From a virus, in UHGV virus genome UHGV-1579991: DNA of 64,000 bases. One strand, written 5' to 3'. Made by a program: the position numbers and the translations under genes. The notes under the pieces were generated by a model. The model did not search any database. It was given only the letters and a program-made list of their open reading frames with translations, and had not been told where the DNA came from. Below, piece after piece: positions 774-62,524 of the stretch (positions within the stretch are counted from its first letter, which is position 1; each line of letters starts with the position of its first letter).

Positions 774-832
774 ATGTTATATGTTTGAATGTTGTAAGAT
801 ATGTACATATTACATACAAAACTCCTCAAATT

Positions 833-1220
833 ATGAACAATACAATGAACTGGGGGGGGGACACAACAAGCCCTCCGAAGTAAGGCTGTGCAAGTAACAT
901 TTCTTGACTACAATGATGGCTATGAGACTTCATTTGAAACTATTGAAGTTCGTACAAACATGCGCACAATAGCAAATCTTATGAATGAATCTATGCCATT
1001 TGCACTAAAAGATAACGAATATGTCAAACAGTTTATCTTTGACATTTTCAATGGCAATGACAGCAGCAGTGTCGAAGTTACAATAACGTACAATGGCGAA
1101 ACAATATACACGGAAGACATACCGCCACAAGAAAGCTCGACATCATTACGTGCATATCTATCACTAAGACAAACAATCATAGGTGAAACGAATATGATTA
1201 GAGTTATTGAACACCTCTAA
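833..1220 (+). CDS. MNNTMNW-leader family protein B; leader and body are in different frames as sequenced (poly-G switch)
   Basis: Leader ORF MNNTMNWGGDTTSPPK* (ATG 833, stop 881-883). Body frame is open 849-1220 (track start is GTG at 888). Frames differ by +1 at the G9 run 852-860; one fewer G gives MNNTMNWGG-TQQALRSKAVQVTF... Confidence 0.5.
852..860 (+). repeat. homopolymeric tract G9 at leader/body junction of gene B
   Basis: Read directly from the sequence. Confidence 0.9.
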
Positions 1221-1231
1221 ACATCAAAAAA

Positions 1232-1259
1232 AACTCCGCTGAAATTTCTCAGTGGAGTT
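1232..1259. terminator. bidirectional terminator-like hairpin between convergent genes B (+) and C (-)
   Basis: About 11-bp stem with one G-T pair, flanked by an A8 run upstream and a T6 run downstream. Confidence 0.6.
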
Positions 1260-1276
1260 TTTTGATGTTGTAAATA

Positions 1277-15381: not shown

Positions 15382-15407
15382 GAAGAGCTTGCATATGCAA
15401 GCTCTTC
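15382..15407 (-). terminator. perfect palindromic hairpin (gaagagcttgcat/atgcaagctcttc) downstream of the gene ending at 15450
   Basis: About 12-bp stem; T-run follows on the minus strand. Confidence 0.55.
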
Positions 15408-18090: not shown

Positions 18091-18208
18091 GTTGTTTATC
18101 TTAAGTTTGTATATGTACAAATAATGTTGATGTTGTATTGAAGCATCGCAAAATAAGGCCAGACTACTCGGTTGAGCTTGCCTGACCTTTTCAAATGCAT
18201 TTTGCTTA

Positions 18209-21837: not shown

Positions 21838-21890
21838 ATCTTCAAATTGTATTTAGGATATGTACCAAACAAACAAAAAGCTTGACTTAT

Positions 21891-22379
21891 TCAGTCAAGC
21901 TTTTGTTCAGAAAGTTCAATAATTTGTGTTTCGTATAGTCGTCTTAGTTCATCAAATCTTACACAGTTTTTGTCATACAGTGTAGCAAGGCCTTGCAATG
22001 CTTGTTGTTTGCTTGTCCATATGATGTCAGCAGTCAAATCCCATAGCCACTTTTGTGCATAATAGAACTTCCAGTCATGCCAAAATGTCTGTGCAGTAAT
22101 TTGTTGTTCTTTGTCATCGATGTAGATGAAGTGATGTGTTGGATTGCCACTTTCAAGGTCTACAAATCTGAATGTCTTATTTGCTACATGTTCAGCAACC
22201 CATTCATTAGATGCAATGACTTCTTGCAATGCACATTGATAATAGTAACGCTTTGCAATGTCAAAGTGTCGAACTACTACACCACGAAACAACGTCCATA
22301 GCCATGGCTCTTCTTCTGAACTTCTAATCCAATAAACTTCTTGATTTACTGGTAGAAAATTGTAGTGAACGAGGTCCAT
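21891..22379 (-). CDS. hypothetical protein, 162 aa
   Basis: ORF in the array. Confidence 0.55.
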   Translation of the reverse strand: MDLVHYNFLPVNQEVYWIRSSEEEPWLWTLFRGVVVRHFDIAKRYYYQCALQEVIASNEWVAEHVANKTFRFVDLESGNPTHHFIYIDDKEQQITAQTFWHDWKFYYAQKWLWDLTADIIWTSKQQALQGLATLYDKNCVRFDELRRLYETQIIELSEQKLD

Positions 22380-35444: not shown

Positions 35445-36719
35445 TTATATATTTGACAGCTGTTTGCGTTGCAAAATTGCATGACCGCAGTCATATACTG
35501 CAACATAACCTGCATCAATCATCTCTTGCTCATTTTGTCCGCAGTCTTCAATATGTTCTTTTGTCTTTAAATGACACCAGTGTTTGCGAATTGTTGACTT
35601 GTCATCTGACAGTTGCGGATTAAGTGCGAAGTTAGTTGAGTCTACTGGTTCACCTGCAAGATGCTTTCGAATGACATCAATGACTTCATTGTCATCCATC
35701 CATTCGAATATTGTAATGCAAGTGTAGCCAAGCTTAAGAGCAAGCTGAGTTTTGTCGAAGTGATAGAATTTGCTAACATGCTTATTGTGTGTAGTACGGC
35801 CAATTAAATATGCAAAACCATATGTTGAATTGTGTGACCAAGTTGGATTGATTTCAATCAATAATTTGCAATGTTCATTACTGTAATTGAGGTCATATGA
35901 CCATCGCTCAAGATTGACATCATCAAGCCCACAATCAATCCCAAGTTCTTGCAGCAATTTGTCATGCCACCAATGGTTTGCTCGTGATTTTACATGACCT
36001 TGAGCATCACGACATTTAGCAGTCATACAAAAATATGGGACACCATAGCGTTGCATGTTAGTTGACGCAATTTTTTGCAAATCGCCTGCAGCAGACCCAT
36101 ATTTTTGTCGTTTTGTTGCAACTGCTACTGCAATATTGCCAAATTTGTTGCCATATCGTTTCTGTTTAGTTTCAAGTGCTTTGTCAATATTTATGATGCC
36201 TCTTGTACCATGTTCTTTTTCACGTTTAGCTAAAATTGTTTGCATGTCGCCAAGTTTGTTGCCATATCGTTGCAATTTAGTTTCATGCATTTTTGCAATA
36301 TTTGTCCAACTATCACCATAATGTTGTCTATGTGTTGCAGCGCAACGTGCTTTGTCACCAAACATGTGTCCAAACTTTGCTAAACGACGCTCAACAAATT
36401 TTTGCATGTCACCCATGCCATTACCATATCGTTTCTGCTTAGTTGCAACAGCCTTTTGCATATTGACACCTCGATAGCCATAACGCATTTCTATTGTTGT
36501 AGTAATTTTATCACTGATGACTTTTGATTGCTGAGCATACTCAAAACCATATTTACGCAAGCAGCCAATTCGCTTATTATATTTCAAACGAATTTTACCA
36601 TGTGATGTCTTCTTTGGGCCATACCATTCATATGGCGTTTCTGCAATCAATTTATCACGTTCAGCTTCAAGTTCTTTTATTCGAGCTTCAAGAGCTTCAC
36701 CTATTAATTGTGTTGCCAT
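35445..36719 (-). CDS. repeat-rich (RYG-x-G) putative homing endonuclease or DNA-binding protein, paralog 2, 424 aa
   Basis: Same repeat architecture and C-terminal domain (LIEINPTWSHNSTYGFAYLIGR) as the gene at 19209-20267. Confidence 0.7.
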   Translation of the reverse strand: MATQLIGEALEARIKELEAERDKLIAETPYEWYGPKKTSHGKIRLKYNKRIGCLRKYGFEYAQQSKVISDKITTTIEMRYGYRGVNMQKAVATKQKRYGNGMGDMQKFVERRLAKFGHMFGDKARCAATHRQHYGDSWTNIAKMHETKLQRYGNKLGDMQTILAKREKEHGTRGIINIDKALETKQKRYGNKFGNIAVAVATKRQKYGSAAGDLQKIASTNMQRYGVPYFCMTAKCRDAQGHVKSRANHWWHDKLLQELGIDCGLDDVNLERWSYDLNYSNEHCKLLIEINPTWSHNSTYGFAYLIGRTTHNKHVSKFYHFDKTQLALKLGYTCITIFEWMDDNEVIDVIRKHLAGEPVDSTNFALNPQLSDDKSTIRKHWCHLKTKEHIEDCGQNEQEMIDAGYVAVYDCGHAILQRKQLSNI

Positions 36720-36728
36720 TATAAAATA

Positions 36729-36757
36729 TTGAGATATTCAATATATGTACATATAAT
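36729..36757 (+). promoter_or_regulatory. sigma70-like promoter candidate TTGAGA-N17-TATAAT upstream of terL
   Basis: Hexamers with 17-nt spacer; -10 element ends about 21 nt before ATG 36779; a 7-bp inverted repeat (atattga-N5-tcaatat) overlaps the -35 element. Confidence 0.45.
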
Positions 36758-36778: not shown

Positions 36779-38770
36779 ATGTCTGAAGTTAAGCATCAAG
36801 TATATGACCCTGTAGCACAATTCAAATCTGCAGAAGAAAAGGAAGCTGCAAGAGTCGTGTGGTGTTCAGAAAGTGTGCGTCGTGCATATGCAGCAGTTGA
36901 CCAAGGCCTGCCATTACGGTCGAATCCCTGGTTCTTTGGCAATATTGCATTGCGTAAGCCAGGACTATTGTATAGATACTCTGACGTAGAGCTACGTGAA
37001 TGGCTTAGATGTGCTTATGATATACTGTACTTTGCCAACACATACGCTACACTCATGACACCTGCAGGTGTGCGAATGCATATTACGTTGCGACCATATC
37101 AGAAAAAAATGCTTCGTGCGTATCAAAAGCAAAAGTACATTATAAGTTTGTGTGGACGACAAATAGGCAAAACTACGACTGCTGCAATTTTCCTCGCTTG
37201 GGCTGTCATTTTCAATCGTGAGCTCAACATAGCAGTACTTGGCGACCGCTTGGCTACATCAAGTGAAAACCTGAACAAAACAAAAGACATCATAAACAAT
37301 CTGCCATTCTTTATGAAGCCTGGTGTGTTTGTTTGGAATGGTGGAATGGTCGCATTTGACAATGGCTGCAAAATTATCACAGGTACTGCTCAAAAGTCAT
37401 CACTTGTCGGTAAAACAATTCACATCTTGTATCTTGATGAGCTCGCAATTCCGCCTGCTCAGCAATCAAAGACTCTTGTAGACTATGCATTGCCCACAAT
37501 TGCATCATTGCCAACTGGCAAAGTTATCGTAACATCTACGCCATCTGGTGATAATGTGTTCAAGACTTTGTGGCTTGGTGCAATTAACAAAACAAATGGA
37601 TTCTTTCCAATTCAAGTAAACTGGTGGGACATTCCAGGTCGTGATGAAAAGTGGAAAGCTGAACAAATTGCAATTCTTGGTGAAGATGCTTTCAATGAGC
37701 AATACAACTGCGTGTTCTTGTCAGGTGCAACGTCAATTTTCAATTCAAGAGCAATTGATGATATTGCAAGACGACAACAAAAGTATGAATTTGTTGCTGA
37801 TGAGCGTCTTGAATCGCTGCTCAGATTTTTCATTGCTGATTCAGATGTTGGCACTGAACCTGAGCCGCATTCATTTATGACTTGGCGTGCAGATATTGAC
37901 CCAGCGACACTCAAAAATGAAACATGTATCATCAACATCGACATCGCTGAAGGCTTATCTGGCGACTTTTCTGTCATACATGTGCATCGTATAGTTGACA
38001 TTGCAAAAGATGCTGAACTTGAACTTGATGCAAGCAATCTGTATGATATGTTTGACGATGACAAAAAATCATTGTTTGCAAAAGCAGTTGAAATGCAACG
38101 TCAAATGTCGGCAACACAAGCTCAAGATGATGACGATGATGACGATGACGACTGGTTTGGCGCAGACGATGATGTTGCTCAAGGAGTCGATGCATATCAA
38201 GATTATGCGAATGCTGCAGTAGAAGAGATTGGCTTGTGGCGCTCAAATGTGACGTCAATTAAAGTCATGGCTCTGTATTTGCAGTTCTTAATGACATATG
38301 TGTTTGACGCAAACAAAACAAAGATTATCTATGAACGCAACAAATATGGTGGAGAGTTTCGTTCATATTGTTTGTCTGAACGTGCACGCAATATTGCAAT
38401 TGATGAAGAGAGCTTCGTAAGCTTCCAACGAACTCTTGGTTCAGAACAACTTGCACCAGGCTGTTCAATTACGCCTGGCACCAAACCAGTGTACGTAAGA
38501 CAGCTCAAAGACCTTATTGAAACTGGCAAGATTCTTGAAAACAATGCAGATACGCAAAGAGAGCTTACATACTTTGGCGGTGTCAAAGGCAAGAATGGTC
38601 ATGTGTCATATCAGGCATCACCAGGCTTCCATGATGACATTGCAATGACTCTTGTATCTCTTGCAGCATTTATGGACACTCGATGCAACGATTGGCTTGA
38701 ACTGCTTGATGTGTTCTACAATGGCAGCAGTCAAACAAGTTCTGATGATGACGATGATGACTGGATTTGA
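36779..38770 (+). CDS. terL: terminase large subunit, 663 aa, with unusual poly-Asp insertions
   Basis: Walker A GRQIGKTT and Walker B ILYLDE in the N-terminal ATPase domain; acidic runs QAQDDDDDDDDDWFGADDD and C-terminal SSDDDDDDWI. Confidence 0.9.
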   Translation: MSEVKHQVYDPVAQFKSAEEKEAARVVWCSESVRRAYAAVDQGLPLRSNPWFFGNIALRKPGLLYRYSDVELREWLRCAYDILYFANTYATLMTPAGVRMHITLRPYQKKMLRAYQKQKYIISLCGRQIGKTTTAAIFLAWAVIFNRELNIAVLGDRLATSSENLNKTKDIINNLPFFMKPGVFVWNGGMVAFDNGCKIITGTAQKSSLVGKTIHILYLDELAIPPAQQSKTLVDYALPTIASLPTGKVIVTSTPSGDNVFKTLWLGAINKTNGFFPIQVNWWDIPGRDEKWKAEQIAILGEDAFNEQYNCVFLSGATSIFNSRAIDDIARRQQKYEFVADERLESLLRFFIADSDVGTEPEPHSFMTWRADIDPATLKNETCIINIDIAEGLSGDFSVIHVHRIVDIAKDAELELDASNLYDMFDDDKKSLFAKAVEMQRQMSATQAQDDDDDDDDDWFGADDDVAQGVDAYQDYANAAVEEIGLWRSNVTSIKVMALYLQFLMTYVFDANKTKIIYERNKYGGEFRSYCLSERARNIAIDEESFVSFQRTLGSEQLAPGCSITPGTKPVYVRQLKDLIETGKILENNADTQRELTYFGGVKGKNGHVSYQASPGFHDDIAMTLVSLAAFMDTRCNDWLELLDVFYNGSSQTSSDDDDDDWI

Positions 38771-38776
38771 TTTGTG

Positions 38777-38836
38777 GCACATCATCACAAAACAAGCCAG
38801 CAGAATTGTCTGCTGGCTTGTTTTGTGATGATGTGC
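38777..38836. terminator. 28-bp perfect inverted repeat with 4-nt loop between convergent terL and DHFR genes
   Basis: gcacatcatcacaaaacaagccagcaga/attg/tctgctggcttgttttgtgatgatgtgc; no strong U-tract on either side. Confidence 0.6.
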
Positions 38837-38838
38837 TG

Positions 38839-39342
38839 TCATCGTTTTCGATGGAAGACTTTGAATTTGTATCGTAACGTTCTGTCATTATCTGTGCATG
38901 TGTATAGTGCAGACTCAGATTTTTTAGTCCACATTCGCCAATTGACTGCAGGAAATCGAACGTCGCCCTCAACATAATTGTCAATCATCGTCAAGTACAT
39001 TCTGTCTGCATAAATCATTGCTTCTTCAAACAACTTAGAACCGCCGATGATAAACATGTTAGACGCAAATGCAGACTTGCAATATGCTATTGCATTGGCT
39101 AGCGTGCTAAATACGAAATAGTCGCTTGTTGGCTGCAATGTAGAGCTTATAACAATGTTAATTCTGTCAGGCAAGGGTTTGCAATTCATCGACTCAAAAG
39201 TCTTACGACCCATGATGACAATGTGATTCTTTGTGAGTTTCTTGAAGTGCTGCAAGTCATATGGAATATGCCAGGGCAAATCACCATTGCGACCTATGAC
39301 ATTGTTATTTGATACTGCTGCTATGATATTGATGTATTGCAT
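38839..39342 (-). CDS. folA: dihydrofolate reductase, 167 aa
   Basis: IAAVSNNNVIGRNGDLPWHIPYDL, VIMGRKTFES and IIGGSKLFEE motifs typical of DHFR. Confidence 0.85.
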   Translation of the reverse strand: MQYINIIAAVSNNNVIGRNGDLPWHIPYDLQHFKKLTKNHIVIMGRKTFESMNCKPLPDRINIVISSTLQPTSDYFVFSTLANAIAYCKSAFASNMFIIGGSKLFEEAMIYADRMYLTMIDNYVEGDVRFPAVNWRMWTKKSESALYTCTDNDRTLRYKFKVFHRKR

Positions 39343-41894: not shown

Positions 41895-41970
41895 TTGTTT
41901 TGATGCAAAATGCAAAACAATATAAAATTGTTTTGATGCAAAATGCAAAACAATATAAAATTGTTTTGAT
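41895..41970. repeat. tandem direct repeat, 33-bp unit x about 2.3 (ttgttttgatgcaaaatgcaaaacaatataaaa)
   Basis: Read directly from the sequence; intergenic, upstream of the Cys-rich gene; each unit carries two TGCAAAA half-sites. Confidence 0.8.
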
Positions 41971-41972
41971 AT

Positions 41973-43877
41973 CTACAAAGATTTGAACAATTCCTCGTAT
42001 GTTACAATTTTCTTGCCTTTTGCAAGTGCTGCTTTCATTTTGTTCGACAGCTTGTTGACATCATTTGTGACAACATAGTCACATGCATCAATGTTTGCAC
42101 CGACATCTTCAAGCTTACCATTTGCTGCATCAATAAATGCACCTTTTGTTGCCCAAGTAGGCTTAGGCGAGCCTGTCATGACAACCTTGATTGTGTTAGC
42201 ATGCGCAGATGCTTCTTTATGCATTTCATTGAACATCACGAAGCATTGTGGAAAGCGCTTGAGTAATCTTTGTATGACATTCAACTTTATGAGCCTGTCA
42301 ATTGGCTCCATGCTCAAGCCCTTAAAGTCATACTGGCAATTGCTAAAGTACGCAGACAACTGATATGCAGCTTTACCACCGAGACCAGGAATCTGCATGC
42401 ATTCAATGAAATGCGACAAGTGAATGCTACTGAAGCGTTCACGTAAGCCTGCAATGACTGTACGGTCATTTTTGCTGTTTGTGTCAAACTGCAGCAGCTC
42501 AAACAGTCGTTCATTGTCAACTTCTTGCACAATGCAGAACAAGTCTTCAATTGTGGGCGCATCAGAGAATGTCAACATGACATCAAGATTGTCTTGTGCA
42601 ATAAGCAATGCTTCACAAATTTTCGTAGCATAAACCCAGCCAAGCCCATCAATATTAAGCTTGCAAACGCCTTTGATAAACCTCGTGCATCTTGCAAATT
42701 CCTCAGGCATCATCAAGTGAATGCCATCGACATATGCATGTACAGGAATGTCAGCTTTGCTGCTATCACCAGGTTCAATACATTCTTGAATGTCTGGAAT
42801 AATGTCACCGCCCTTTTCAATACGAACAAGAGCGCCTGGCCAAATACCATTTGCATGCAAAAAGCCATAGTGAAATGCTGAAGCTGCTTTTACTGTAGTG
42901 CCATCAAGCTCAACAGGCTCAAGTTCAACTCTCGGAAAAAGCTCACCATTGATTCGCTGACGCCAATCAATTCGAGTCACTCGAGTTACAGCAGACATTG
43001 CGTCAAGCTTCAATGCAACCATGTTTGCATATTCTGCTGCATTTGCAAACTGCTGCTCAATCCACAAGTCATCTGCAAAAGGCTTGACTACAATGCCATC
43101 AATGCGATATTTGAATTCTGAACGCCCATTGGCAATTTTTGTGCAAGTTTCTGCAAACTCATTGTAATCAGTGACTTCAAAGACTTCTGCAATGAATTCT
43201 GCAGGCCAGCCAACTTTAGCAAGAGCATCTGCAGGATTGGTTTGCTCATATGTTTTGCCATCAAGTGTGTCAGTCAGCATGTATGCCATAGGGTCAATGT
43301 CTTCCATGCCACACATGTCTAATGACTTCACAAATGCTGCAGCAGTATTGCGCTCATTTTTGTATTTGACAGAGCCATCAGCATTGAAATGATATTTTTG
43401 TGCAAAAATGTCTTTTGCAATGACAGCCTCAAAGCGAATTTGATATGGCTGTTCTGCTGCAGCAAGCTGCATCGGCACTTTGCCTGCTACAACAAATTTG
43501 CGCGTGACATCATAGCCCGTATAGCCATCACCACGAGTAACAACTTTTAGCAATCTGCCATCAGTGTCGTAATGTGCTTCACAGCCCATGCCATCATACT
43601 TGTGCATAAGCAGCATTTCATGACCAACAATGTTGCACACAGTATCATGCAACGCAGTTGTAAACTGTGACTTTGTATGAATTGCAGCAAGACTCAATGC
43701 AGGTGTAAGATGCTTAACTTCTTGTTTATTTGACTCTTCAAAGCGAATCTTATGTTTAATGTCGCTATTTGCAAGAAGCTGCTGTTCAAGAGCATCAAAT
43801 GCCTCATCAGACATTATCGGATTGCCTGCATAATACGCAGCTATTGCGTCATGGTACATATTGAGTGTATCAGTCAT
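41973..43877 (-). CDS. ligA: NAD-dependent DNA ligase-like protein, 634 aa
   Basis: N-terminal Ia-like segment (AYYAGNPIMSDEAFDALEQQL) and adenylation motif KYDG with downstream TRGDG; motif-level call. Confidence 0.65.
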   Translation of the reverse strand: MTDTLNMYHDAIAAYYAGNPIMSDEAFDALEQQLLANSDIKHKIRFEESNKQEVKHLTPALSLAAIHTKSQFTTALHDTVCNIVGHEMLLMHKYDGMGCEAHYDTDGRLLKVVTRGDGYTGYDVTRKFVVAGKVPMQLAAAEQPYQIRFEAVIAKDIFAQKYHFNADGSVKYKNERNTAAAFVKSLDMCGMEDIDPMAYMLTDTLDGKTYEQTNPADALAKVGWPAEFIAEVFEVTDYNEFAETCTKIANGRSEFKYRIDGIVVKPFADDLWIEQQFANAAEYANMVALKLDAMSAVTRVTRIDWRQRINGELFPRVELEPVELDGTTVKAASAFHYGFLHANGIWPGALVRIEKGGDIIPDIQECIEPGDSSKADIPVHAYVDGIHLMMPEEFARCTRFIKGVCKLNIDGLGWVYATKICEALLIAQDNLDVMLTFSDAPTIEDLFCIVQEVDNERLFELLQFDTNSKNDRTVIAGLRERFSSIHLSHFIECMQIPGLGGKAAYQLSAYFSNCQYDFKGLSMEPIDRLIKLNVIQRLLKRFPQCFVMFNEMHKEASAHANTIKVVMTGSPKPTWATKGAFIDAANGKLEDVGANIDACDYVVTNDVNKLSNKMKAALAKGKKIVTYEELFKSL

Positions 43878-48934: not shown

Positions 48935-50126
48935 TCATTTTTGCACAGCATGGCCGCAATCGTACACAGGCACATAACCAGCGTCAAGCATTTGTTGTTC
49001 ATCTACTTCTGCAGTATGCGCAGCATACAGTCGCTTCTTGTAATTCCACCAATGTTTTCTAATAGTCAATTTGTCATTGCATATGACAGGATTTTTTGAC
49101 AAGTCTGTGCTATCTACACGTTCATTGCATAAATGCTGTCGTATGATTTCTACAACGTCATCAGGGTTATCCCAATCCCATATTGTAATGCATATGTAGC
49201 CTGCTGTAAGTGCTGCTTGAGTTTTTCTAAAATGTCTATCATTAGGAATTGGCAAATTGCGTTTAGATTTGCCAATTGCATATGCAAAGCCAAATGCAGC
49301 ATTATGTGAAAACGATGGGTTGATTTCTATTAGTAGATGCTTATAATGCAAATCATAAGAAAATCTGCCAATATTGACATCATCAAATGTGCAATCAATG
49401 TTAAGTCGTTGCAGCAAAAAATCATGCCACCAACGATTAACCGTTGTAATGGTGCGCCCATTAGCATGCCGACAACGCTCAGTCATAACAAACCAAGGTA
49501 CACCATAGCGTTCAAGATTTGTTTGCATGCGTTTTGCAGTGCCACCATATTCATCACCGTATCGTAATCTGCGTGTATGAACTGCTTTTAATGGGTTGCC
49601 AGCAGAATTGCCATATCGTAGCATCTTTGTTTGCTGCGCTTTAGCAGTAATTACACCATGGTCAGGATAGTGTTCGCGTATTGTTTGCTGCACTTTAGTA
49701 GCATTCCATGTGCGATAGCCGTACTTGTGTAATTTTGTTTGCTGGGCTTTTTGCATGTTGTTATAATATGGGTCGCCATAGCGTTCTTCTTTAATTTTGC
49801 ACATTAACTGTTGGTCGCCAAATGCATTGCCATATTTTGCAAGTTTTGTTGCCTTAAATTTAGTCATGTCGCCAAGCCCATTGCCATATCTTTCTCGTTT
49901 TGTTGCGACACCTTTGTTTGTAAATTCTTTTTAATTGCGCAGTGTTTTCAACACCATATTTACGCAAATTGCTTATACGACTGTTATATGTACGTTTGCA
50001 AATTGTGTATTGTGAGTAGCGTTTATGCTGAGGTCGTTCTTTAGACGCAGTTTGCAATATCACATCTCTTTCCTCTTCAAGTTCTTTTATGCGAGCTTCA
50101 AGAGCTTCTCCAGTTAATGGTTCCAT
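48935..50126 (-). pseudogene. repeat-rich (RYG-x-G) homing-endonuclease-like gene, paralog 3, split by a frameshift
   Basis: Two overlapping ORFs (49860-50126 and 48935-49867); homology to paralog 2 continues across a T5 run at about 49928-49932 only if one base is removed. Confidence 0.6.
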
Positions 50127-56273: not shown

Positions 56274-56310
56274 ATTGTCGAAATCTTGTTTGTGTTATAT
56301 GTACACAAAA

Positions 56311-56336
56311 CTGCACCAGCAAAATTGCTGGTGCAG
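56311..56336 (-). terminator. rho-independent terminator-like hairpin (ctgcaccagc/aaaatt/gctggtgcag)
   Basis: 10-bp stem; T-run follows on the minus strand; sits between stop 56340 and next start 56273. Confidence 0.55.
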
Positions 56337-56339
56337 TCG

Positions 56340-59174: not shown

Positions 59175-59418
59175 TTTGTGTATGTTCTTGATTTGCTTGT
59201 TCTGCTAAGTTGTTTATGAATGCTTTGAGCAATTCAATGATTGTTGTTAGTAACTGAATTTGAAACAATACAATGCTAAACATGACAATTGCTACAATGC
59301 AAATTGAAATGAAGAGCATATTGATGTCAAATTTGTTTGCTATCAATGTTTGCAGCCAAGTTATGACTGCAAACATTGAAATCAGTATGAATACTTTGTG
59401 CTGTGATAACGATTTCAT
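59152..59418 (-). CDS. small membrane protein with two predicted TM helices, 88 aa (holin-like topology, speculative)
   Basis: Hydrophobic segments VFILISMFAVITWL and FISICIVAIVMFSIVLF. Confidence 0.45.
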   Translation of the reverse strand: MKSLSQHKVFILISMFAVITWLQTLIANKFDINMLFISICIVAIVMFSIVLFQIQLLTTIIELLKAFINNLAEQANQEHTQNDSDTAN

Positions 59419-60134
59419 TTGAAATGTGCGGATGTCGGATTAGTGTCGGTCATTCTAATGTGCCAGTCATAAATGAACCATCTTGCGAGGTCATCATTTT
59501 TGATGTTATGAGTTTTGACATACTGTTCAGGGCCTAATGCCTCGCCGGTTTCAGGATTGACTGCGAAGTGGGATTCATCTACATTAGTAGACTTGTTTTT
59601 GATGTTTGAGATTCGGAGCTTTGTATGCAGTTCAGTGCCATCAGATTGCAGTGTTTTGACATAGAATGCAGTTTTTGTCGTTGCTTCATTGTCAAGCCAT
59701 ACACCGAACTTAACTCCGTGCGATTTCCAGTATGCATTGTCAGCATCCCTGATTGCTTTGAAGTTCGGGTCATCAAGCCAAGGCTTGAAGACATATACAG
59801 CATGTTGTTCCTTTCGAGTGATTTCGCCTTTGCCTTCACAAACTGTATGATACAGCCGCATTGCAGTTTCTTCATCGAAATAATAAGTCAGATTGCCTGG
59901 CTTATCGAATGTGCCAAACTGCTGACCATCGATTACGAGAATGAATGTGTAACGTGAATCCTTGAAGAACTCTACTCGTACAGGCTGTTTGTGCTGTCTG
60001 CTGTTAAGCAGTCTGTCAATTGTAATGACTGCCCAGTTGGTGCCTGTCTTTGTTTTGTTGCCGTGAAACAGTTCAGGATATGAAACTGTGTAAGGCAATG
60101 CTTTGTACTTCCAATGTTCATTAAAACTTTTCAT
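59415..60134 (-). CDS. hypothetical protein, 239 aa
   Basis: ORF in the array. Confidence 0.6.
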   Translation of the reverse strand: MKSFNEHWKYKALPYTVSYPELFHGNKTKTGTNWAVITIDRLLNSRQHKQPVRVEFFKDSRYTFILVIDGQQFGTFDKPGNLTYYFDEETAMRLYHTVCEGKGEITRKEQHAVYVFKPWLDDPNFKAIRDADNAYWKSHGVKFGVWLDNEATTKTAFYVKTLQSDGTELHTKLRISNIKNKSTNVDESHFAVNPETGEALGPEQYVKTHNIKNDDLARWFIYDWHIRMTDTNPTSAHFK

Positions 60135-60235: not shown

Positions 60236-60339
60236 CAAATTTGCACACTTTGATAATCAAAAGTGCAAACAAAATTCAAAGTTATATTGTACATCATAAA
60301 GTGCAAATTTGCACTTTATGATGCTGCAAAATGTTTGCA
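60236..60339. promoter_or_regulatory. cluster of TTTGCAC/GTGCAAA half-sites including a 20-bp perfect palindrome aaagtgcaaatttgcacttt (about 60298-60317)
   Basis: Read directly from the sequence; AT-rich intergenic region that also carries two atcaattgcat direct repeats (about 60158-60184). Confidence 0.4.
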
Positions 60340-60349
60340 TAAAAAAATA

Positions 60350-60373
60350 AGCAGCTTAGATTGCTAAGCTGCT
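60350..60373 (-). terminator. terminator-like hairpin (agcagcttag/attg/ctaagctgct) downstream of the membrane protein gene
   Basis: 10-bp stem; followed on the minus strand by a T7 run. Confidence 0.5.
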
Positions 60374-60883: not shown

Positions 60884-61258
60884 GCAAATATATTTTTGTT
60901 TGTATATGTACATAAAAGAGCAAGTTCTCCACATTGAGAACTTGCTCAGCTGACCTGTTACCAGGTGAAAGCGTGGTGCAGCACCTTGTGCTGCAATGGC
61001 TATGCTGCCATCGCCATAACGGGCTGAGCATTGCCCAGCATCATTACACGACCAGCTGCATTAAGCGTACGCTTTGCTTTGTTGAAAAATTTGCCAGTTA
61101 TCTGGTATCTGCACATCTATTCAAGCGACCTACTATGCAATCAAATGCCTGTCGAGCCCAATGTTTGAGCAGTTGTTTGTCAGATGCTCAGCTGACTGCA
61201 GTCTTTCTGAGTGTATCAAGTTCAGCGATTCTGCATCTTTGCTAAATGGCAATGGTTC

Positions 61259-61300
61259 AGGTGGACTCGCCGAGAATCGAACTCGGGTCTTACATAGCGC
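61259..61300 (-). other. tRNA 3'-half-like element (T-arm plus acceptor 3' strand) with no 5' partner
   Basis: CCGAG/TTCGATT/CTCGG T-arm followed by CGAGTCC-A-CC; no complementary 5' acceptor strand was found upstream. Confidence 0.2.
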
Positions 61301-61342
61301 ATCCTTGACTTGGTCCTGTAAACAGGGTTGTCAACATGCATT

Positions 61343-61413
61343 GCAATACGACAGGACTCGAACCTGCGACCTCGGATTGGACGTCCGCGCTCTTACCGCT
61401 GAGCTACGTATTC
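61343..61413 (-). tRNA. tRNA-like gene with canonical D- and T-arms but non-canonical anticodon arm (possible pseudo-tRNA)
   Basis: GCTC/AGCGGTAA/GAGC D-arm and GCAGG/TTCGAGT/CCTGT T-arm; acceptor stem 6 of 7 pairs; the region GTCCAAT could not be folded into a standard anticodon stem-loop by hand. Confidence 0.35.
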
Positions 61414-61506
61414 TTATCAATTGACTGCACTGCAATGCAATCAATCGTGCCAATGATATTTGACACGCATAATTGCAGTTATGCGTAACAATTCAAATGT
61501 CATTTG

Positions 61507-61579
61507 AGCCAACTGCAGGAATCGAACCTGTAACCTGCTGAGTACAAATCAGCTGCTCTACCAATTGAGCTAAGTTGGC
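61507..61579 (-). tRNA. tRNA-Thr (anticodon TGT)
   Basis: Hand-folded cloverleaf: 7-bp acceptor stem GCCAACT/AGTTGGC, D-arm GCTC..GAGC, anticodon stem GCTGA/TCAGC with loop TTTGTAC, T-loop TTCGATT; CCA not encoded. Confidence 0.8.
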
Positions 61580-61584
61580 ATAAA

Positions 61585-61658
61585 GTCGTTGGGCCATTGC
61601 AACCCAAACCTATCATCTTTGCCTAACCAAAGATGCAAGCGCTCTCTTACACCACGAC
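61585..61658 (-). other. tRNA-like element with irregular arms (possible degenerate tRNA)
   Basis: Acceptor-like pairing GTCGTGG/CCAACGAC (6 of 7) and a long hairpin CATCTTTG/GTTAGG/CAAAGATG; T-loop atypical. Confidence 0.2.
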
Positions 61659-61661
61659 TTG

Positions 61662-61733
61662 TAGCCGAACTTGGAGTCGAACCAAGCTTTCGAGAATGAA
61701 AATCTCGCGTCCTAACCGATAGACGAAACGGCC
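61662..61733 (-). tRNA. tRNA-Glu (anticodon TTC), with two mismatches in the acceptor stem
   Basis: D-stem GTCT/GGAC, anticodon stem CGAGA/TCTCG with loop TTTTCAT, T-arm CTTGG/TTCGACT/CCAAG; acceptor 5 of 7 pairs. Confidence 0.55.
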
Positions 61734-61916
61734 AAGAGCAGTTCAAGTCTGCAGCATTGAACTGCGGAAACAATGCCTGTACGGGCAACCAATTGTGCAG
61801 ATACAGCGACATTGCAAAATCACACCGAACCAAGTTTGTGGCTCTTCTGTCTCATAAAAACAAGTAATCATTACACTTGGCACCAATGATTTTGATGTAA
61901 AAATCGGTGTGTTACG

Positions 61917-62001
61917 CGGAGAGTAAGGGATTCGAACCCCTGGTACGTTGCCGTACAGTGGTTTTCAAGACCACCGCCATCGACCGCTCGGCCAACTCTC
62001 C
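61917..62001 (-). tRNA. tRNA-Ser (anticodon TGA), type II with long variable arm
   Basis: Acceptor GGAGAGT/ACTCTCC, D-arm GCCGAGCGGTCGATGGC, anticodon stem GTGGT/ACCAC with loop CTTGAAA, long variable arm, T-loop TTCGAAT. Confidence 0.8.
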
Positions 62002-62194
62002 ATAAAACATTGCATAAGCATTCTTATCTCTTGATGAGGCCAAGTAGCTAATTTGGCAAGTTTGTTATATCTATCGTGACTGTTGCAGTTTGTTGTCACT
62101 CAATACACAAAACTTTCGAACATTCATTGACAACACTGCAATATCGCTTTTTAAGCTCAGCCATCAATGTATTTATGCAATGTATAACAATTCG

Positions 62195-62276
62195 TAGCCA
62201 AACCGGGACTTGAACCCAGACTCCTAATGGAACAACATTTTGAGTGTTGCGTGTCTACCAATTCCACCATTTGGCC
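62195..62276 (-). tRNA. tRNA-Leu (anticodon CAA), type II
   Basis: Acceptor GGCCAAA/TTTGGCT, anticodon stem CAACA/TGTTG with loop CTCAAAA, 13-nt variable arm, T-loop TTCAAGT. Confidence 0.75.
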
Positions 62277-62373
62277 ATTTGCAAATGCAAGCTGTTTCAC
62301 AACTGTTTGCATTTGCATTTGCATTGTTTAACACACTAAAATATGATTCATCTAATCAAAAACCAGAGAATTG

Positions 62374-62446
62374 TCGAGAATGTGCGATTTGAACGCCAAT
62401 TATACGTCCCAAACGTATCGTGTTACCGGATTACACTACATTCTCG
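62374..62446 (-). tRNA. tRNA-Pro (anticodon TGG), with irregular D-arm and T-stem
   Basis: Acceptor CGAGAAT/ATTCTCG perfect; anticodon stem ATACG/CGTAT with loop TTTGGGA; T-loop TTCAAAT. Confidence 0.6.
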
Positions 62447-62453
62447 TTAATTG

Positions 62454-62524
62454 TTGAACTGTCTGGACTCGAACCAGAAATATATCATCCAAAGTGATAT
62501 GTGTTACCATTACACCACAGCTCA
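62454..62524 (-). tRNA. tRNA-Gln (anticodon TTG)
   Basis: Acceptor TGAGCTG/CAGTTCA (one G-T pair), D-stem GTGT/ACAC, anticodon stem TATCA/TGATA with loop CTTTGGA, T-arm TCTGG/TTCGAGT/CCAGA. Confidence 0.8.

What the first reader, a model, noticed from the sequence alone, without database searches (positions are those of the whole stretch)
38777..38836. Perfect 28-bp inverted repeat immediately after terL
A 60-nt element with a 28-bp perfect stem and 4-nt loop starts 6 nt after the terL stop and ends 2 nt before the convergent DHFR stop. It is much longer than the 10-13 bp terminator stems elsewhere and lacks a clear U-tract, so beyond a bidirectional terminator it could be a protein-binding or cleavage site. 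Its palindromy also generates mirror-image spurious ORFs on both strands.
Basis: seen in the sequence. Interest (0 to 1): 0.4.

Follow-up and report, generated by a model that had tools for sequence, protein, structure and literature searches.

The report
Two-way terminator hairpin after terL
The perfect 28-bp hairpin between the phage's terminase and dihydrofolate-reductase genes is real. Its conserved core is an ordinary two-way transcription terminator whose U-tracts lie inside the long stem, and the outer part that makes it unusually long is a strain-specific extension.

Summary
Arms 38777-38804 and 38809-38836 are 100% complementary around the loop ATTG. The element starts 6 nt after the terL stop and ends 2 nt before the convergent DHFR stop, and it is far beyond chance.

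The claim that it lacks a U-tract is wrong. The anatomy is [GCACATCATCAC][AAAACAA][GCCAGCAGA]-ATTG-[TCTGCTGGC][TTGTTTT][GTGATGATGTGC]. That is a 9-bp GC-rich core followed on either strand by TTGTTTTGTG. The window's other 10-15-bp terminators use the same stem-plus-TTTTGTG format. Because the two tails are complementary, they pair and lengthen the stem.

Five alleles from related strains keep the inner 22 pairs, apart from a 3-nt deletion in one allele. The outer 6 pairs are mostly unpaired in the other alleles. Two alleles carry the loop as its exact reverse complement (CAAT). The arms occur nowhere else in the window or in IMG/VR, and there is no Rfam match. More distant terL relatives carry unrelated 12-16-bp A/T-flanked hairpins at the same convergent junction.

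Best reading: a canonical bidirectional intrinsic terminator with a non-essential stem extension, probably made by template switching. Nothing supports a packaging or cleavage site. Interest is low.

The parts
36779..38770 (+). terL (large terminase, T4-type N-terminal ATPase). It is the only long + strand gene in a long run of - strand genes and forms the upstream unit terminated by the hairpin.
   Evidence: ORF list; PF03237 at E 2.4e-22 and phrog_5989/phrog_2.
36729..36757 (+). Candidate terL promoter: TTGAGA-17-TATAAT, 11 of 12 matches. It overlaps the conserved palindromic motif ATATGTACATATAAT in the 59-nt divergent spacer.
   Evidence: Best-scoring promoter-like site in 34-44 kb. The motif block is conserved in L001, L002 and L012 and enriched in the window. 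Its function is inferred only.
38777..38788 (.). Outer left arm GCACATCATCAC. This is the strain-variable extension of the stem, and its outermost 6 nt differ in every allele.
38786..38795 (-). CACAAAACAA on the + strand, read as the U-rich tail UUGUUUUGUG of the DHFR (- strand) transcript. On the + strand it is the A-tract. Predicted - strand 3' ends lie at about 38787-38789.
   Evidence: Read from the sequence. The tail format matches the window's other - strand terminators. Invariant in all 5 alleles.
38796..38817 (.). Terminator core: 9-bp GC-rich stem GCCAGCAGA/TCTGCTGGC with the 4-nt loop ATTG (38805-38808). Its free energy is -15.6 kcal/mol.
   Evidence: This is within the -13.9 to -26.1 kcal/mol range of the window's other terminator hairpins. 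The stem is invariant in 5 alleles and the loop is inverted (CAAT) in two.
38818..38827 (+). U-rich tail of the terL transcript, TTGTTTTGTG (7 T of 10). Predicted + strand 3' ends lie at about 38824-38826.
   Evidence: Conserved except for a 3-nt deletion in the L012/L013 allele, which leaves TTGTTTGATG.
38825..38836 (.). Outer right arm GTGATGATGTGC. Its last 6 nt read ATGTGC here and in L001, but CCTTGC or ACTTGC in the other alleles.
38839..39342 (-). Dihydrofolate reductase, the last gene of the convergent - strand unit.
   Evidence: PF00186 at E 1.2e-50; phrog_316.

Best explanation
The element is a canonical bidirectional intrinsic (Rho-independent) transcription terminator. It separates the monocistronic + strand terL unit from the convergent - strand unit that ends with DHFR.

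On either strand, RNA polymerase transcribes the 9-bp GC-rich hairpin GCCAGCAGA-loop-TCTGCTGGC and then the U-rich stretch UUGUUUUGUG, and it releases the RNA within that stretch. Each strand's U-tract is the other strand's A-tract, so the two tails are complementary. In the DNA sequence they therefore appear as about 10 further stem pairs.

The remaining outer pairs (6-9 bp) are not part of the terminator. A transcript that terminates in the U-tract never contains the outer 3' arm, so the 28-bp helix can form only in read-through RNA or as a DNA cruciform.

The outer extension is a strain-specific state of an unconstrained or mutation-prone spacer. It was most likely made perfect by a replication template-switch (quasipalindrome-correcting) event. 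The same class of event explains the exact inversion of the loop in sister strains. The extension may also keep the terminator core clear of ribosomes stopping 2-6 nt away (inference).

Shown here: the anatomy, the conservation pattern, and the match to the phage's other terminators. Inferred: actual termination, the positions of the 3' ends, and the template-switch origin.
For: 1. Anatomy. A GC-rich 9-bp core with a 4-nt loop at -15.6 kcal/mol, followed on both strands by TTGTTTTGTG.

2. House style. The window has 11 perfect hairpins of at least 10 bp, against 0.48 expected. At least seven of them (195-226, 2407-2435, 15382-15407, 21876-21904, 56310-56337, 60350-60373, 60918-60947) lie in or at the edge of spacers between - strand genes; five of these begin 25-43 nt past, or overlap, a - strand stop codon, while 56310-56337 lies 211 nt past the nearest listed stop and 60918-60947 far from any. 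On the - strand they are followed by TTTGTGTT, CTTTTTGTGC, TTTTTGTGCG, TTTGTGTACA, TGTTTGTTTG, TATTTTTTTA or TTTTATGTAC. This is the same stem-plus-TTTTGTG format as the core here.

3. A second case in the window. Hairpin 1228-1263 begins 8 nt after the stop of a short unannotated + ORF (888..1220) that faces - strand genes, and it has the same design: A6 tract, core, T6 tract.

4. Position. The element fills the 68-nt gap between two convergent stop codons.

5. Conservation across five alleles from strains that are 94-99% identical in the flanks. The inner 22 pairs never vary apart from one 3-nt deletion. The outer 6 pairs are unpaired in 3-4 of the 5 alleles.

6. Positional analogues. Phages whose terL is 54-55% identical carry unrelated 12-16-bp hairpins with A- and T-rich flanks between terL and a convergent gene. 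An example is AAAAGAAGCCTGCATG-loop-CATGCAGGCTTCTTTT in L048.

7. The same 11-bp stem, AAGCCAGCAGA/TCTGCTGGCTT, recurs in 29 unrelated metagenome loci, many of them with A- or T-rich flanks. It is a generic terminator-type hairpin.

8. Literature. Hairpins of bidirectional terminators are flanked by A's on one side and complementary T's on the other, and the lower half of an apparent long stem can be the two tails hybridising (PMC1852404). Phage LUZ7 T50, between convergent genes with an A-tract and a U-tract, terminates over 96% in both orientations (PMC10204088). Template switching creates perfect stems, multi-base compensatory changes and loop inversions (PMC8794818).
Against: There are no transcript 3'-end data.

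The host and its RNA polymerase are unknown. The nearest isolates infect Chryseobacterium, Tenacibaculum and Sphingomonas, at 32-41% terL identity.

The U-tract is interrupted by G's, with 7 T in 10.

The generic terminator scanner did not call the site. This is understandable, because it takes the maximal stem and then looks for T's after it.

The model gives the outer 6-9 pairs no function.

Covariation statistics are uninformative with five close alleles.
Confidence: 0.8

Rival explanations
1. The element is an RNA-processing or fail-safe site layered on the terminator. Only read-through transcripts contain both outer arms and fold into the 28-bp perfect dsRNA. RNase III or a similar dsRNA nuclease then cleaves it, destabilising read-through or antisense RNA, in the manner of lambda sib retroregulation. 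This is compatible with the terminator model rather than exclusive of it.
For: The full stem is 28-29 bp of uninterrupted duplex at -50.9 kcal/mol. That is longer than the roughly two helical turns RNase III needs (my own knowledge). The outer 3' arm lies downstream of the predicted termination point, so the long helix would be specific to read-through RNA (inference).
Against: The long helix is not conserved. Alleles C and D have 22 perfect pairs, and allele E has 15 plus a bulge, in strains whose flanking sequence within about 500 nt is 94-99% identical. No RNase III gene or host is identified. No other terminator in the window is extended this way.
Confidence: 0.1
2. The element is a DNA-level protein recognition site next to terL, such as a packaging initiation (pac/cos) site, a nicking or cleavage site, or an operator bound by a dimeric protein.
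For: It is a perfect palindrome immediately beside the terminase gene. The loop inversion between strains suggests the inverted repeat takes part in DNA transactions.
Against: The outer half of the palindrome is not conserved among close strains. The conserved part is a generic terminator hairpin that also occurs in unrelated genomes. The terminase is T4-type (PF03237), a type associated with headful packaging without a fixed end site (my own knowledge). Assemblies of sister genomes break at different places, none of them at the hairpin. More distant relatives with the same convergent junction carry unrelated hairpins, or none at all: MA9V-1 has only a 7-nt spacer.
Confidence: 0.04
3. The element is a mobile or recombination-associated palindrome: a REP/MITE-like element, an attC-like or IS200/IS605-type hairpin, or a scar marking inversion of the terL cassette.
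For: terL is the only long + strand gene in the region. The neighbouring gene 35445..36719 has a weak homing-endonuclease-like match: phrog_3339 at E 1e-5, and DUF7487 below its cut-off.
Against: It is single copy. No second copy of an arm occurs in the window at up to 3 mismatches beyond chance. In IMG/VR the pattern is found only at the same locus in the two sister contigs. In metagenomes only one further hit is homologous, and it is the same locus. There is no transposase or integrase next to it. The terL-against-convergent-gene arrangement is ancestral to the group, down to 40% terL identity.
Confidence: 0.02

Closest known systems
Canonical bidirectional intrinsic terminators between convergent genes, for example phage LUZ7 T50 (PMC10204088) and the class handled explicitly by TransTermHP (PMC1852404)
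   Same: A GC-rich hairpin with a short loop, an A-tract on one side and a complementary U-tract on the other. It sits directly between two convergent stop codons, and the tails can hybridise and lengthen the apparent stem.
   Different: Here the pairing continues 6-9 bp beyond the tails in this strain, giving a perfect 28-bp stem. The U-tract is G-interrupted (UUGUUUUGUG), which is the style of this phage's other terminators. Activity has not been measured.
Lambda tI/sib retroregulation (a terminator hairpin that becomes an RNase III site only in read-through RNA); cited from my own knowledge
   Same: The geometry is the same. The terminated RNA carries only the short hairpin, and only read-through RNA can form the long duplex.
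   Different: There is no evidence of cleavage. The long duplex is not conserved in sister strains, and the stem here is perfect rather than containing internal loops.
Template-switch (quasipalindrome) mutations that perfect stems and invert hairpin loops (PMC8794818, PMC7202029)
   Same: Clustered multi-base changes in one arm (CCTTGC or ACTTGC to ATGTGC) make it the exact complement of the other arm. The 4-nt loop is replaced by its exact reverse complement (ATTG to CAAT) between strains.
   Different: The event is inferred from five alleles without an outgroup, so its polarity is not proven. It has been described mainly for rRNA, miRNA and E. coli reporter loci. I did not look for earlier reports in phage terminators.

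Membership tests
Bidirectional intrinsic (Rho-independent) terminator | A stable GC-rich stem-loop with a short (3-8 nt) loop | tested here: met
   Core GCCAGCAGA-ATTG-TCTGCTGGC has 6 GC pairs of 9 and folds at -15.6 kcal/mol (-18.1 with the AA/TT pairs).
Bidirectional intrinsic (Rho-independent) terminator | A U-rich tract immediately 3' of the hairpin on the first strand | tested here: met
   38818-38827 reads TTGTTTTGTG, 7 T of 10. The tail motif is the same as in the window's other terminators.
Bidirectional intrinsic (Rho-independent) terminator | A complementary A-tract 5' of the hairpin, giving a U-tract on the opposite strand | tested here: met
   38786-38795 reads CACAAAACAA, the exact complement of the + strand tail.
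Bidirectional intrinsic (Rho-independent) terminator | Location between convergent transcription units, downstream of both stop codons | tested here: met
   The terL stop is 38768-38770 and the DHFR stop is 38839-38841. The element fills the 68-nt gap between them.
Bidirectional intrinsic (Rho-independent) terminator | The core is conserved in relatives while non-functional flanks drift | tested here: met
   The inner 22 pairs are invariant in 5 alleles apart from one 3-nt deletion. The outer 6 pairs are mostly unpaired. There are too few alleles for a statistical test.
Bidirectional intrinsic (Rho-independent) terminator | Transcript 3' ends in the U-tracts, or measured termination in both orientations | not testable with these tools
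   This needs Term-seq, ONT-cappable-seq or a terminator-trap assay.
RNase III processing site | About 20 bp or more of continuous dsRNA in the transcript | tested here: inconclusive
   Met for read-through RNA of this strain (28-29 bp). Sister strains have only 22 bp, or 15 bp plus a bulge. It is absent from RNA terminated in the U-tract.
RNase III processing site | Demonstrated cleavage, or dependence of RNA ends on RNase III | not testable with these tools
   No expression data are available.
Phage packaging (pac/cos) or cleavage site | A sequence conserved among close relatives over the recognised length | tested here: not met
   The outer arms differ in every allele, and the loop is inverted in two.
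Phage packaging (pac/cos) or cleavage site | Virion DNA termini or read-start pile-ups at the site | not testable with these tools
   No reads are available. Contig ends of sister assemblies do not fall at the hairpin.
Dispersed palindromic repeat (REP/MITE-like) | Multiple homologous copies in the genome or in related genomes | tested here: not met
   It is single copy in the window. In IMG/VR it is found only at the orthologous locus. The other metagenome hits share only the 11-bp stem, in unrelated contexts.
Known structured RNA family (Rfam 15) | A match at gathering threshold | tested here: not met
   The whole-window cmscan found only 7 tRNAs at 61.3-62.5 kb and nothing near 38.8 kb.

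The most novel reading that the evidence does not exclude
The long perfect stem is not a neutral by-product but a second layer of control. Transcripts that escape the terminator core in either direction fold into a 28-bp dsRNA, which a dsRNA nuclease cleaves. This acts as a sib-like fail-safe that prevents antisense interference between terL and DHFR. Recurrent template-switch conversion keeps regenerating the perfect palindrome, and the loop flips seen between strains are the footprints of those conversions.
Probability: 0.08. Interest if true: 0.4.

Novelty: new member of a known kind. Interest (0 to 1): 0.15.

Why it matters
The main value is for annotation. It shows how a bidirectional terminator can look like an over-long hairpin with no U-tract, because its two tails pair with each other. 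The simple stem-then-T-run scanner missed it for exactly that reason.

It defines terL as a self-contained transcription unit: a candidate promoter at 36729-36757 and the terminator at 38786-38827. This unit lies opposite to the rest of this roughly 175-180-kb uncultured phage.

The strain comparison also gives a clean small example of hairpin micro-evolution. The loop is exactly inverted, and one arm is homogenised to the other by clustered changes, consistent with replication template switching. It does not open a new question.

Tried and rejected
1. Megablast of terL through DHFR against 50,697 phage records found no match. Protein-level search shows only distant isolates: Chryseobacterium MA9V-1 at 41%, then Sphingomonas PAU and Tenacibaculum PTm1.

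2. Mobile-repeat idea. Arm searches in the window and a pattern scan of IMG/VR found only the orthologous locus, so this was rejected.

Only L039 is homologous. The rest are unrelated hairpins sharing the stem, many with A- or T-rich flanks. This is useful as evidence that the stem is generic, but it yielded only one new allele.

4. Covariation test on five alleles. One both-sides change was seen (A-U versus G-C at alignment columns 11/62), and it is not distinguishable from shuffles. There are too few and too similar sequences.

5. More distant terL relatives. L015 and L046 are not syntenic downstream. The L014 contig ends 50 nt after the terL stop. MA9V-1 has a 7-nt spacer with no hairpin.

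6. Rfam at gathering threshold found nothing at the site.

7. Assembly artefact. A perfect inverted repeat with arms longer than k minus the loop length makes loop orientation ambiguous in a de Bruijn graph (my own reasoning). However, the CAAT alleles have only 22-bp perfect arms. They were recovered by two independent assemblies with the same linked arm variant. The ATTG and 28-bp allele was also recovered by a k119 MEGAHIT assembly. This was rejected.

8. Coding potential of the ORFs crossing the palindrome (38774..38977 + and 38618..38842 -). They are mirror translations of the palindrome running antisense into DHFR and terL, so they are spurious.

Full report
**Observation.** The window holds a perfect inverted repeat with arms at 38777-38804 and 38809-38836. 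Each arm is 28 nt, they are 100% complementary, and the spacer is the 4-nt ATTG.

The 663-aa ORF 36779..38770 (+) is a large terminase (PF03237 Terminase_6N at E 2.4e-22, and several terL PHROGs). The 167-aa ORF 38839..39342 (-) is a dihydrofolate reductase (PF00186 at E 1.2e-50).

It is far beyond chance. Twenty shuffles of the window gave longest perfect hairpin stems of 8-11 bp. The folding z-scores are -11.0 and -12.3 on the two strands.

The mirror ORFs are real but trivial translations of the palindrome. The identical 66-nt intergenic sequence occurs in two further assemblies, Logan ERR1136811 and an ENA 181-kb k119 contig. It is not an assembly artefact.

**Context.** Nearly every long ORF in the 64 kb lies on the - strand, and terL is the lone long + strand gene. 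The - strand genes include a baseplate wedge and a tape-measure-like protein upstream, and a DHFR and an NAD-ligase downstream.

The best promoter-like site in 34-44 kb is TTGAGA-17-TATAAT at 36729-36757. It sits in the 59-nt divergent spacer just before terL. terL therefore looks like a one-gene unit running head-on into the - strand unit that ends with DHFR.

The phage is uncultured. Sister contigs are 175-181 kb, from human-gut-type assemblies. The nearest isolates by terL are Chryseobacterium phages MA9V-1 and MA9V-2 (41-49% over the aligned part), Sphingomonas PAU and Tenacibaculum PTm1.

**Anatomy.** Read from the loop outward, the stem has three zones:

| Zone | Left arm | Right arm |
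|---|---|---|
| Outer extension | GCACATCATCAC | GTGATGATGTGC |
| A-tract / T-tract | AAAACAA | TTGTTTT |
| GC-rich core | GCCAGCAGA | TCTGCTGGC |

The loop between the two core arms is ATTG.

The 9-bp GC-rich core with its tetraloop folds at -15.6 kcal/mol. On the + strand it is followed by TTGTTTTGTG. On the - strand it is followed by the same ten bases, because the upstream CACAAAACAA is their complement.

The statement that the element lacks a U-tract is therefore incorrect. The U-tracts are inside the stem. The generic scanner also missed the site, because it takes the maximal stem and then looks for T's beyond it.

**The phage's other terminators.** The window has 11 perfect hairpins of at least 10 bp with 3-8-nt loops, against 0.48 expected. 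At least seven of them lie in or at the edge of spacers between - strand genes. Five of these begin 25-43 nt past, or overlap, a - strand stop codon; 56310-56337 lies 211 nt past the nearest listed stop, and 60918-60947 lies far from any listed stop. On the - strand they are followed by T-rich tails of one recognisable style:

| Hairpin | Tail on the - strand |
|---|---|
| 195-226 | TTTGTGTT |
| 2407-2435 | CTTTTTGTGC |
| 15382-15407 | TTTTTGTGCG |
| 56310-56337 | TTTGTGTACA |
| 21876-21904 | TGTTTGTTTG |
| 60350-60373 | TATTTTTTTA |
| 60918-60947 | TTTTATGTAC |

Their hairpin energies run from -13.9 to -26.1 kcal/mol.

The core of the terL hairpin has the same stem size, the same loop size and the same TTTTGTG tail. 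The only difference is that it carries the tail on both sides.

A second hairpin, at 1228-1263, begins 8 nt after the stop of a short unannotated + ORF (888..1220) that faces - strand genes. It shows the same two-sided design: A6 tract, core, T6 tract.

Kingsford et al. describe exactly this. Bidirectional terminator hairpins are flanked by A's and complementary T's, and the bottom half of an apparent long stem can be the two tails hybridising (PMC1852404). A measured phage example is LUZ7 T50, which lies between convergent genes, has an A-tract and a U-tract, and terminates over 96% in both orientations (PMC10204088).

**Relatives.** I recovered five alleles of this locus, shown here in the terL orientation:

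| Allele | Source | Left outer arm | Loop | Right outer arm | Perfect stem |
|---|---|---|---|---|---|
| A | window, L051-L054 | GCACATCATCAC | ATTG | GTGATGATGTGC | 28 bp |
| B | L001 | ACACATCATCAC | ATTG | GTGATGATGTGC | 27 bp |
| C | L002 | ACACGTCATCAC | CAAT | GTGATGCCTTGC | 22 bp |
| D | L039 | ACGCATCATCAC | CAAT | GTGATGCCTTGC | 22 bp |
| E | L012, L013 | ACACAACATCAC | ATTG | GATGACTTGC | 15 bp |

In allele E the right arm reads TTGTTT-GATGACTTGC. It has lost 3 nt, which leaves 15 perfect pairs and then a bulge.

The flanking 400-500 nt are 94-99% identical between these strains. The per-pair count shows that the inner 22 pairs never vary, apart from the deletion. Four of the six outermost pairs are unpaired in 3 or 4 of the 5 alleles. 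The terminator part is kept, and the part that makes the hairpin remarkable is not.

With five close sequences the covariation statistics carry no weight.

Phages whose terL is 54-55% identical keep the arrangement of terL facing a convergent gene. At that junction they carry unrelated hairpins of 12-16 bp with A- and T-rich flanks, such as AAAAGAAGCCTGCATG-loop-CATGCAGGCTTCTTTT in L048. Chryseobacterium phage MA9V-1 has only a 7-nt spacer there.

**Single copy and generic core.** No second copy of an arm exists in the window. In IMG/VR the pattern is found only at the same locus in the two sister contigs.

One (L039) is this locus. The other 29 are unrelated contexts in which the same stem often has A- or T-rich flanks, including one just after a tRNA-like 3' end. 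That stem is simply a good terminator hairpin that has arisen repeatedly.

Rfam has no family at this position.

**Micro-evolution of the hairpin.** Two features point to DNA-level template switching rather than stepwise point mutation.

First, the loop in alleles C and D is the exact reverse complement of the loop in A, B and E. All four bases differ, in strains that differ by only a few percent elsewhere. The orientation is linked to the arm variant and was reproduced by independent assemblies, which argues against a graph-orientation artefact.

Second, the right outer arm reads ATGTGC in A and B where the others read CCTTGC or ACTTGC. That is two or three adjacent changes, and every one of them creates a Watson-Crick pair with the left arm.

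Mönttinen and Löytynoja describe both patterns as signatures of template-switch mutations: multi-base compensatory changes that perfect a stem, and loop inversion (PMC8794818). Quasipalindrome correction is well studied in E. coli (PMC7202029). The polarity of the change is inferred, because I have no outgroup allele.

**Mechanism.** The following is my best-supported account, and it is inferred. RNA polymerase coming from terL forms the GC core hairpin as it enters the UUGUUUUGUG stretch and releases the RNA at about 38824-38826. Polymerase coming from DHFR does the mirror-image reaction and releases at about 38787-38789.

RNA that terminates this way lacks the outer 3' arm. The 28-bp helix therefore cannot be what terminates transcription. 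It can form only in read-through RNA or as a DNA cruciform.

Ribosomes stopping 6 nt and 2 nt from the stem would occupy part of the outer arm. The outer zone may therefore also act as a spacer that keeps the core free. This is an inference.

**Rivals.**
- **Sib-like RNase III fail-safe acting on read-through RNA.** This is geometrically attractive, but the long helix is not conserved, and I cannot test cleavage.
- **Packaging, cleavage or operator site.** This is disfavoured for four reasons. The outer palindrome varies among close strains. The conserved part is generic. The terminase is T4-type. Sister assemblies never break at the hairpin.
- **Mobile palindrome.** This is excluded by the single copy number.
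- **Assembly artefact.** This is excluded by replication across assemblies.

**Verdict.** The reasons offered for looking beyond a terminator fall away. This is a new member of a well-known kind, with a neat but minor population-genetic footnote.

Noticed in passing
window 38805-38808, compared with L002 3894-3897 and L039 (reverse strand): The 4-nt loop of the hairpin is ATTG in the window, L001, L012 and L013. In L002 and L039 it is CAAT, its exact reverse complement. The orientation is linked to the right-arm variant GCCTTG. This is a loop inversion between strains whose sequence around the hairpin is 94-99% identical (90-96% across terL), consistent with a template-switch or arm-recombination event.
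   Followed up: partly
window 796-813, 18108-18125, 36740-36757, 49983-49997, 56294-56311, 60901-60918: The palindromic motif ATATGTACATAT(AAT) is enriched: 16 matches at up to 3 mismatches against 4.4 expected, with 0 of 100 shuffles reaching 16. One copy sits in the divergent spacer before terL and is conserved in sister strains. Others lie directly after a - strand terminator hairpin and about 35 nt before the next gene start. It is a candidate phage promoter or operator.
   Followed up: partly
window 1228-1263: This is a second bidirectional-type terminator: AAAAAACTCCGCTGA-AATTTC-TCAGTGGAGTTTTTT. It begins 8 nt after the stop of a short + strand ORF (888..1220) that faces - strand genes. 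Its A6/T6 tails pair to give a 15-bp stem.
   Followed up: partly
window 41895-41968: Tandem AT-rich hairpin units CAAAACAAT-ATAAA-ATTGTTTTG occur twice, separated by ATGCAAAATG spacers, immediately upstream of the NAD-dependent DNA ligase gene (41973..43877, -). They are conserved in L001 and L002. Their function is unknown; they may be a regulatory or origin-like repeat.
   Followed up: no
window 61343-62524 (-): This is a cluster of seven tRNA genes (Gly, Thr, Glu, Ser, Leu, Pro, Gln). ARAGORN also calls a permuted tmRNA at 60909-61351, which Rfam does not support at gathering threshold and which is probably a false positive.
   Followed up: partly
window 60292-60323: This is a 32-nt near-perfect palindrome, CATCATAAAGTGCA-AATT-TGCACTTTATGATG. 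It has no T-rich tail on either strand and lies between the terminator at 60350-60373 and gene 59415..60134. It does not look like a terminator and was not examined further.
   Followed up: no
window 35445-36719 (-): The 424-aa protein encoded divergently from terL has only weak matches to a homing-endonuclease PHROG (E 1e-5) and to DUF7487 (26.6 bits, below the 27-bit cut-off). It is conserved next to terL in sister strains.
   Followed up: no
L016-L045 (metagenome loci): The 11-bp stem AAGCCAGCAGA/TCTGCTGGCTT recurs in 29 unrelated metagenome loci from human-gut, freshwater and marine samples. Many have A- or T-rich flanks, which suggests convergent reuse of one good terminator hairpin sequence.
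   Followed up: partly
window versus L001, L002, L012 and L039, terL and 1.5 kb downstream: Pairwise identities change rank along the locus. For example, window-L001 is 91.7% across terL, 98.5-99% around the hairpin, and 90.1% further downstream. This indicates mosaic recombination among co-circulating strains.
   Followed up: partly
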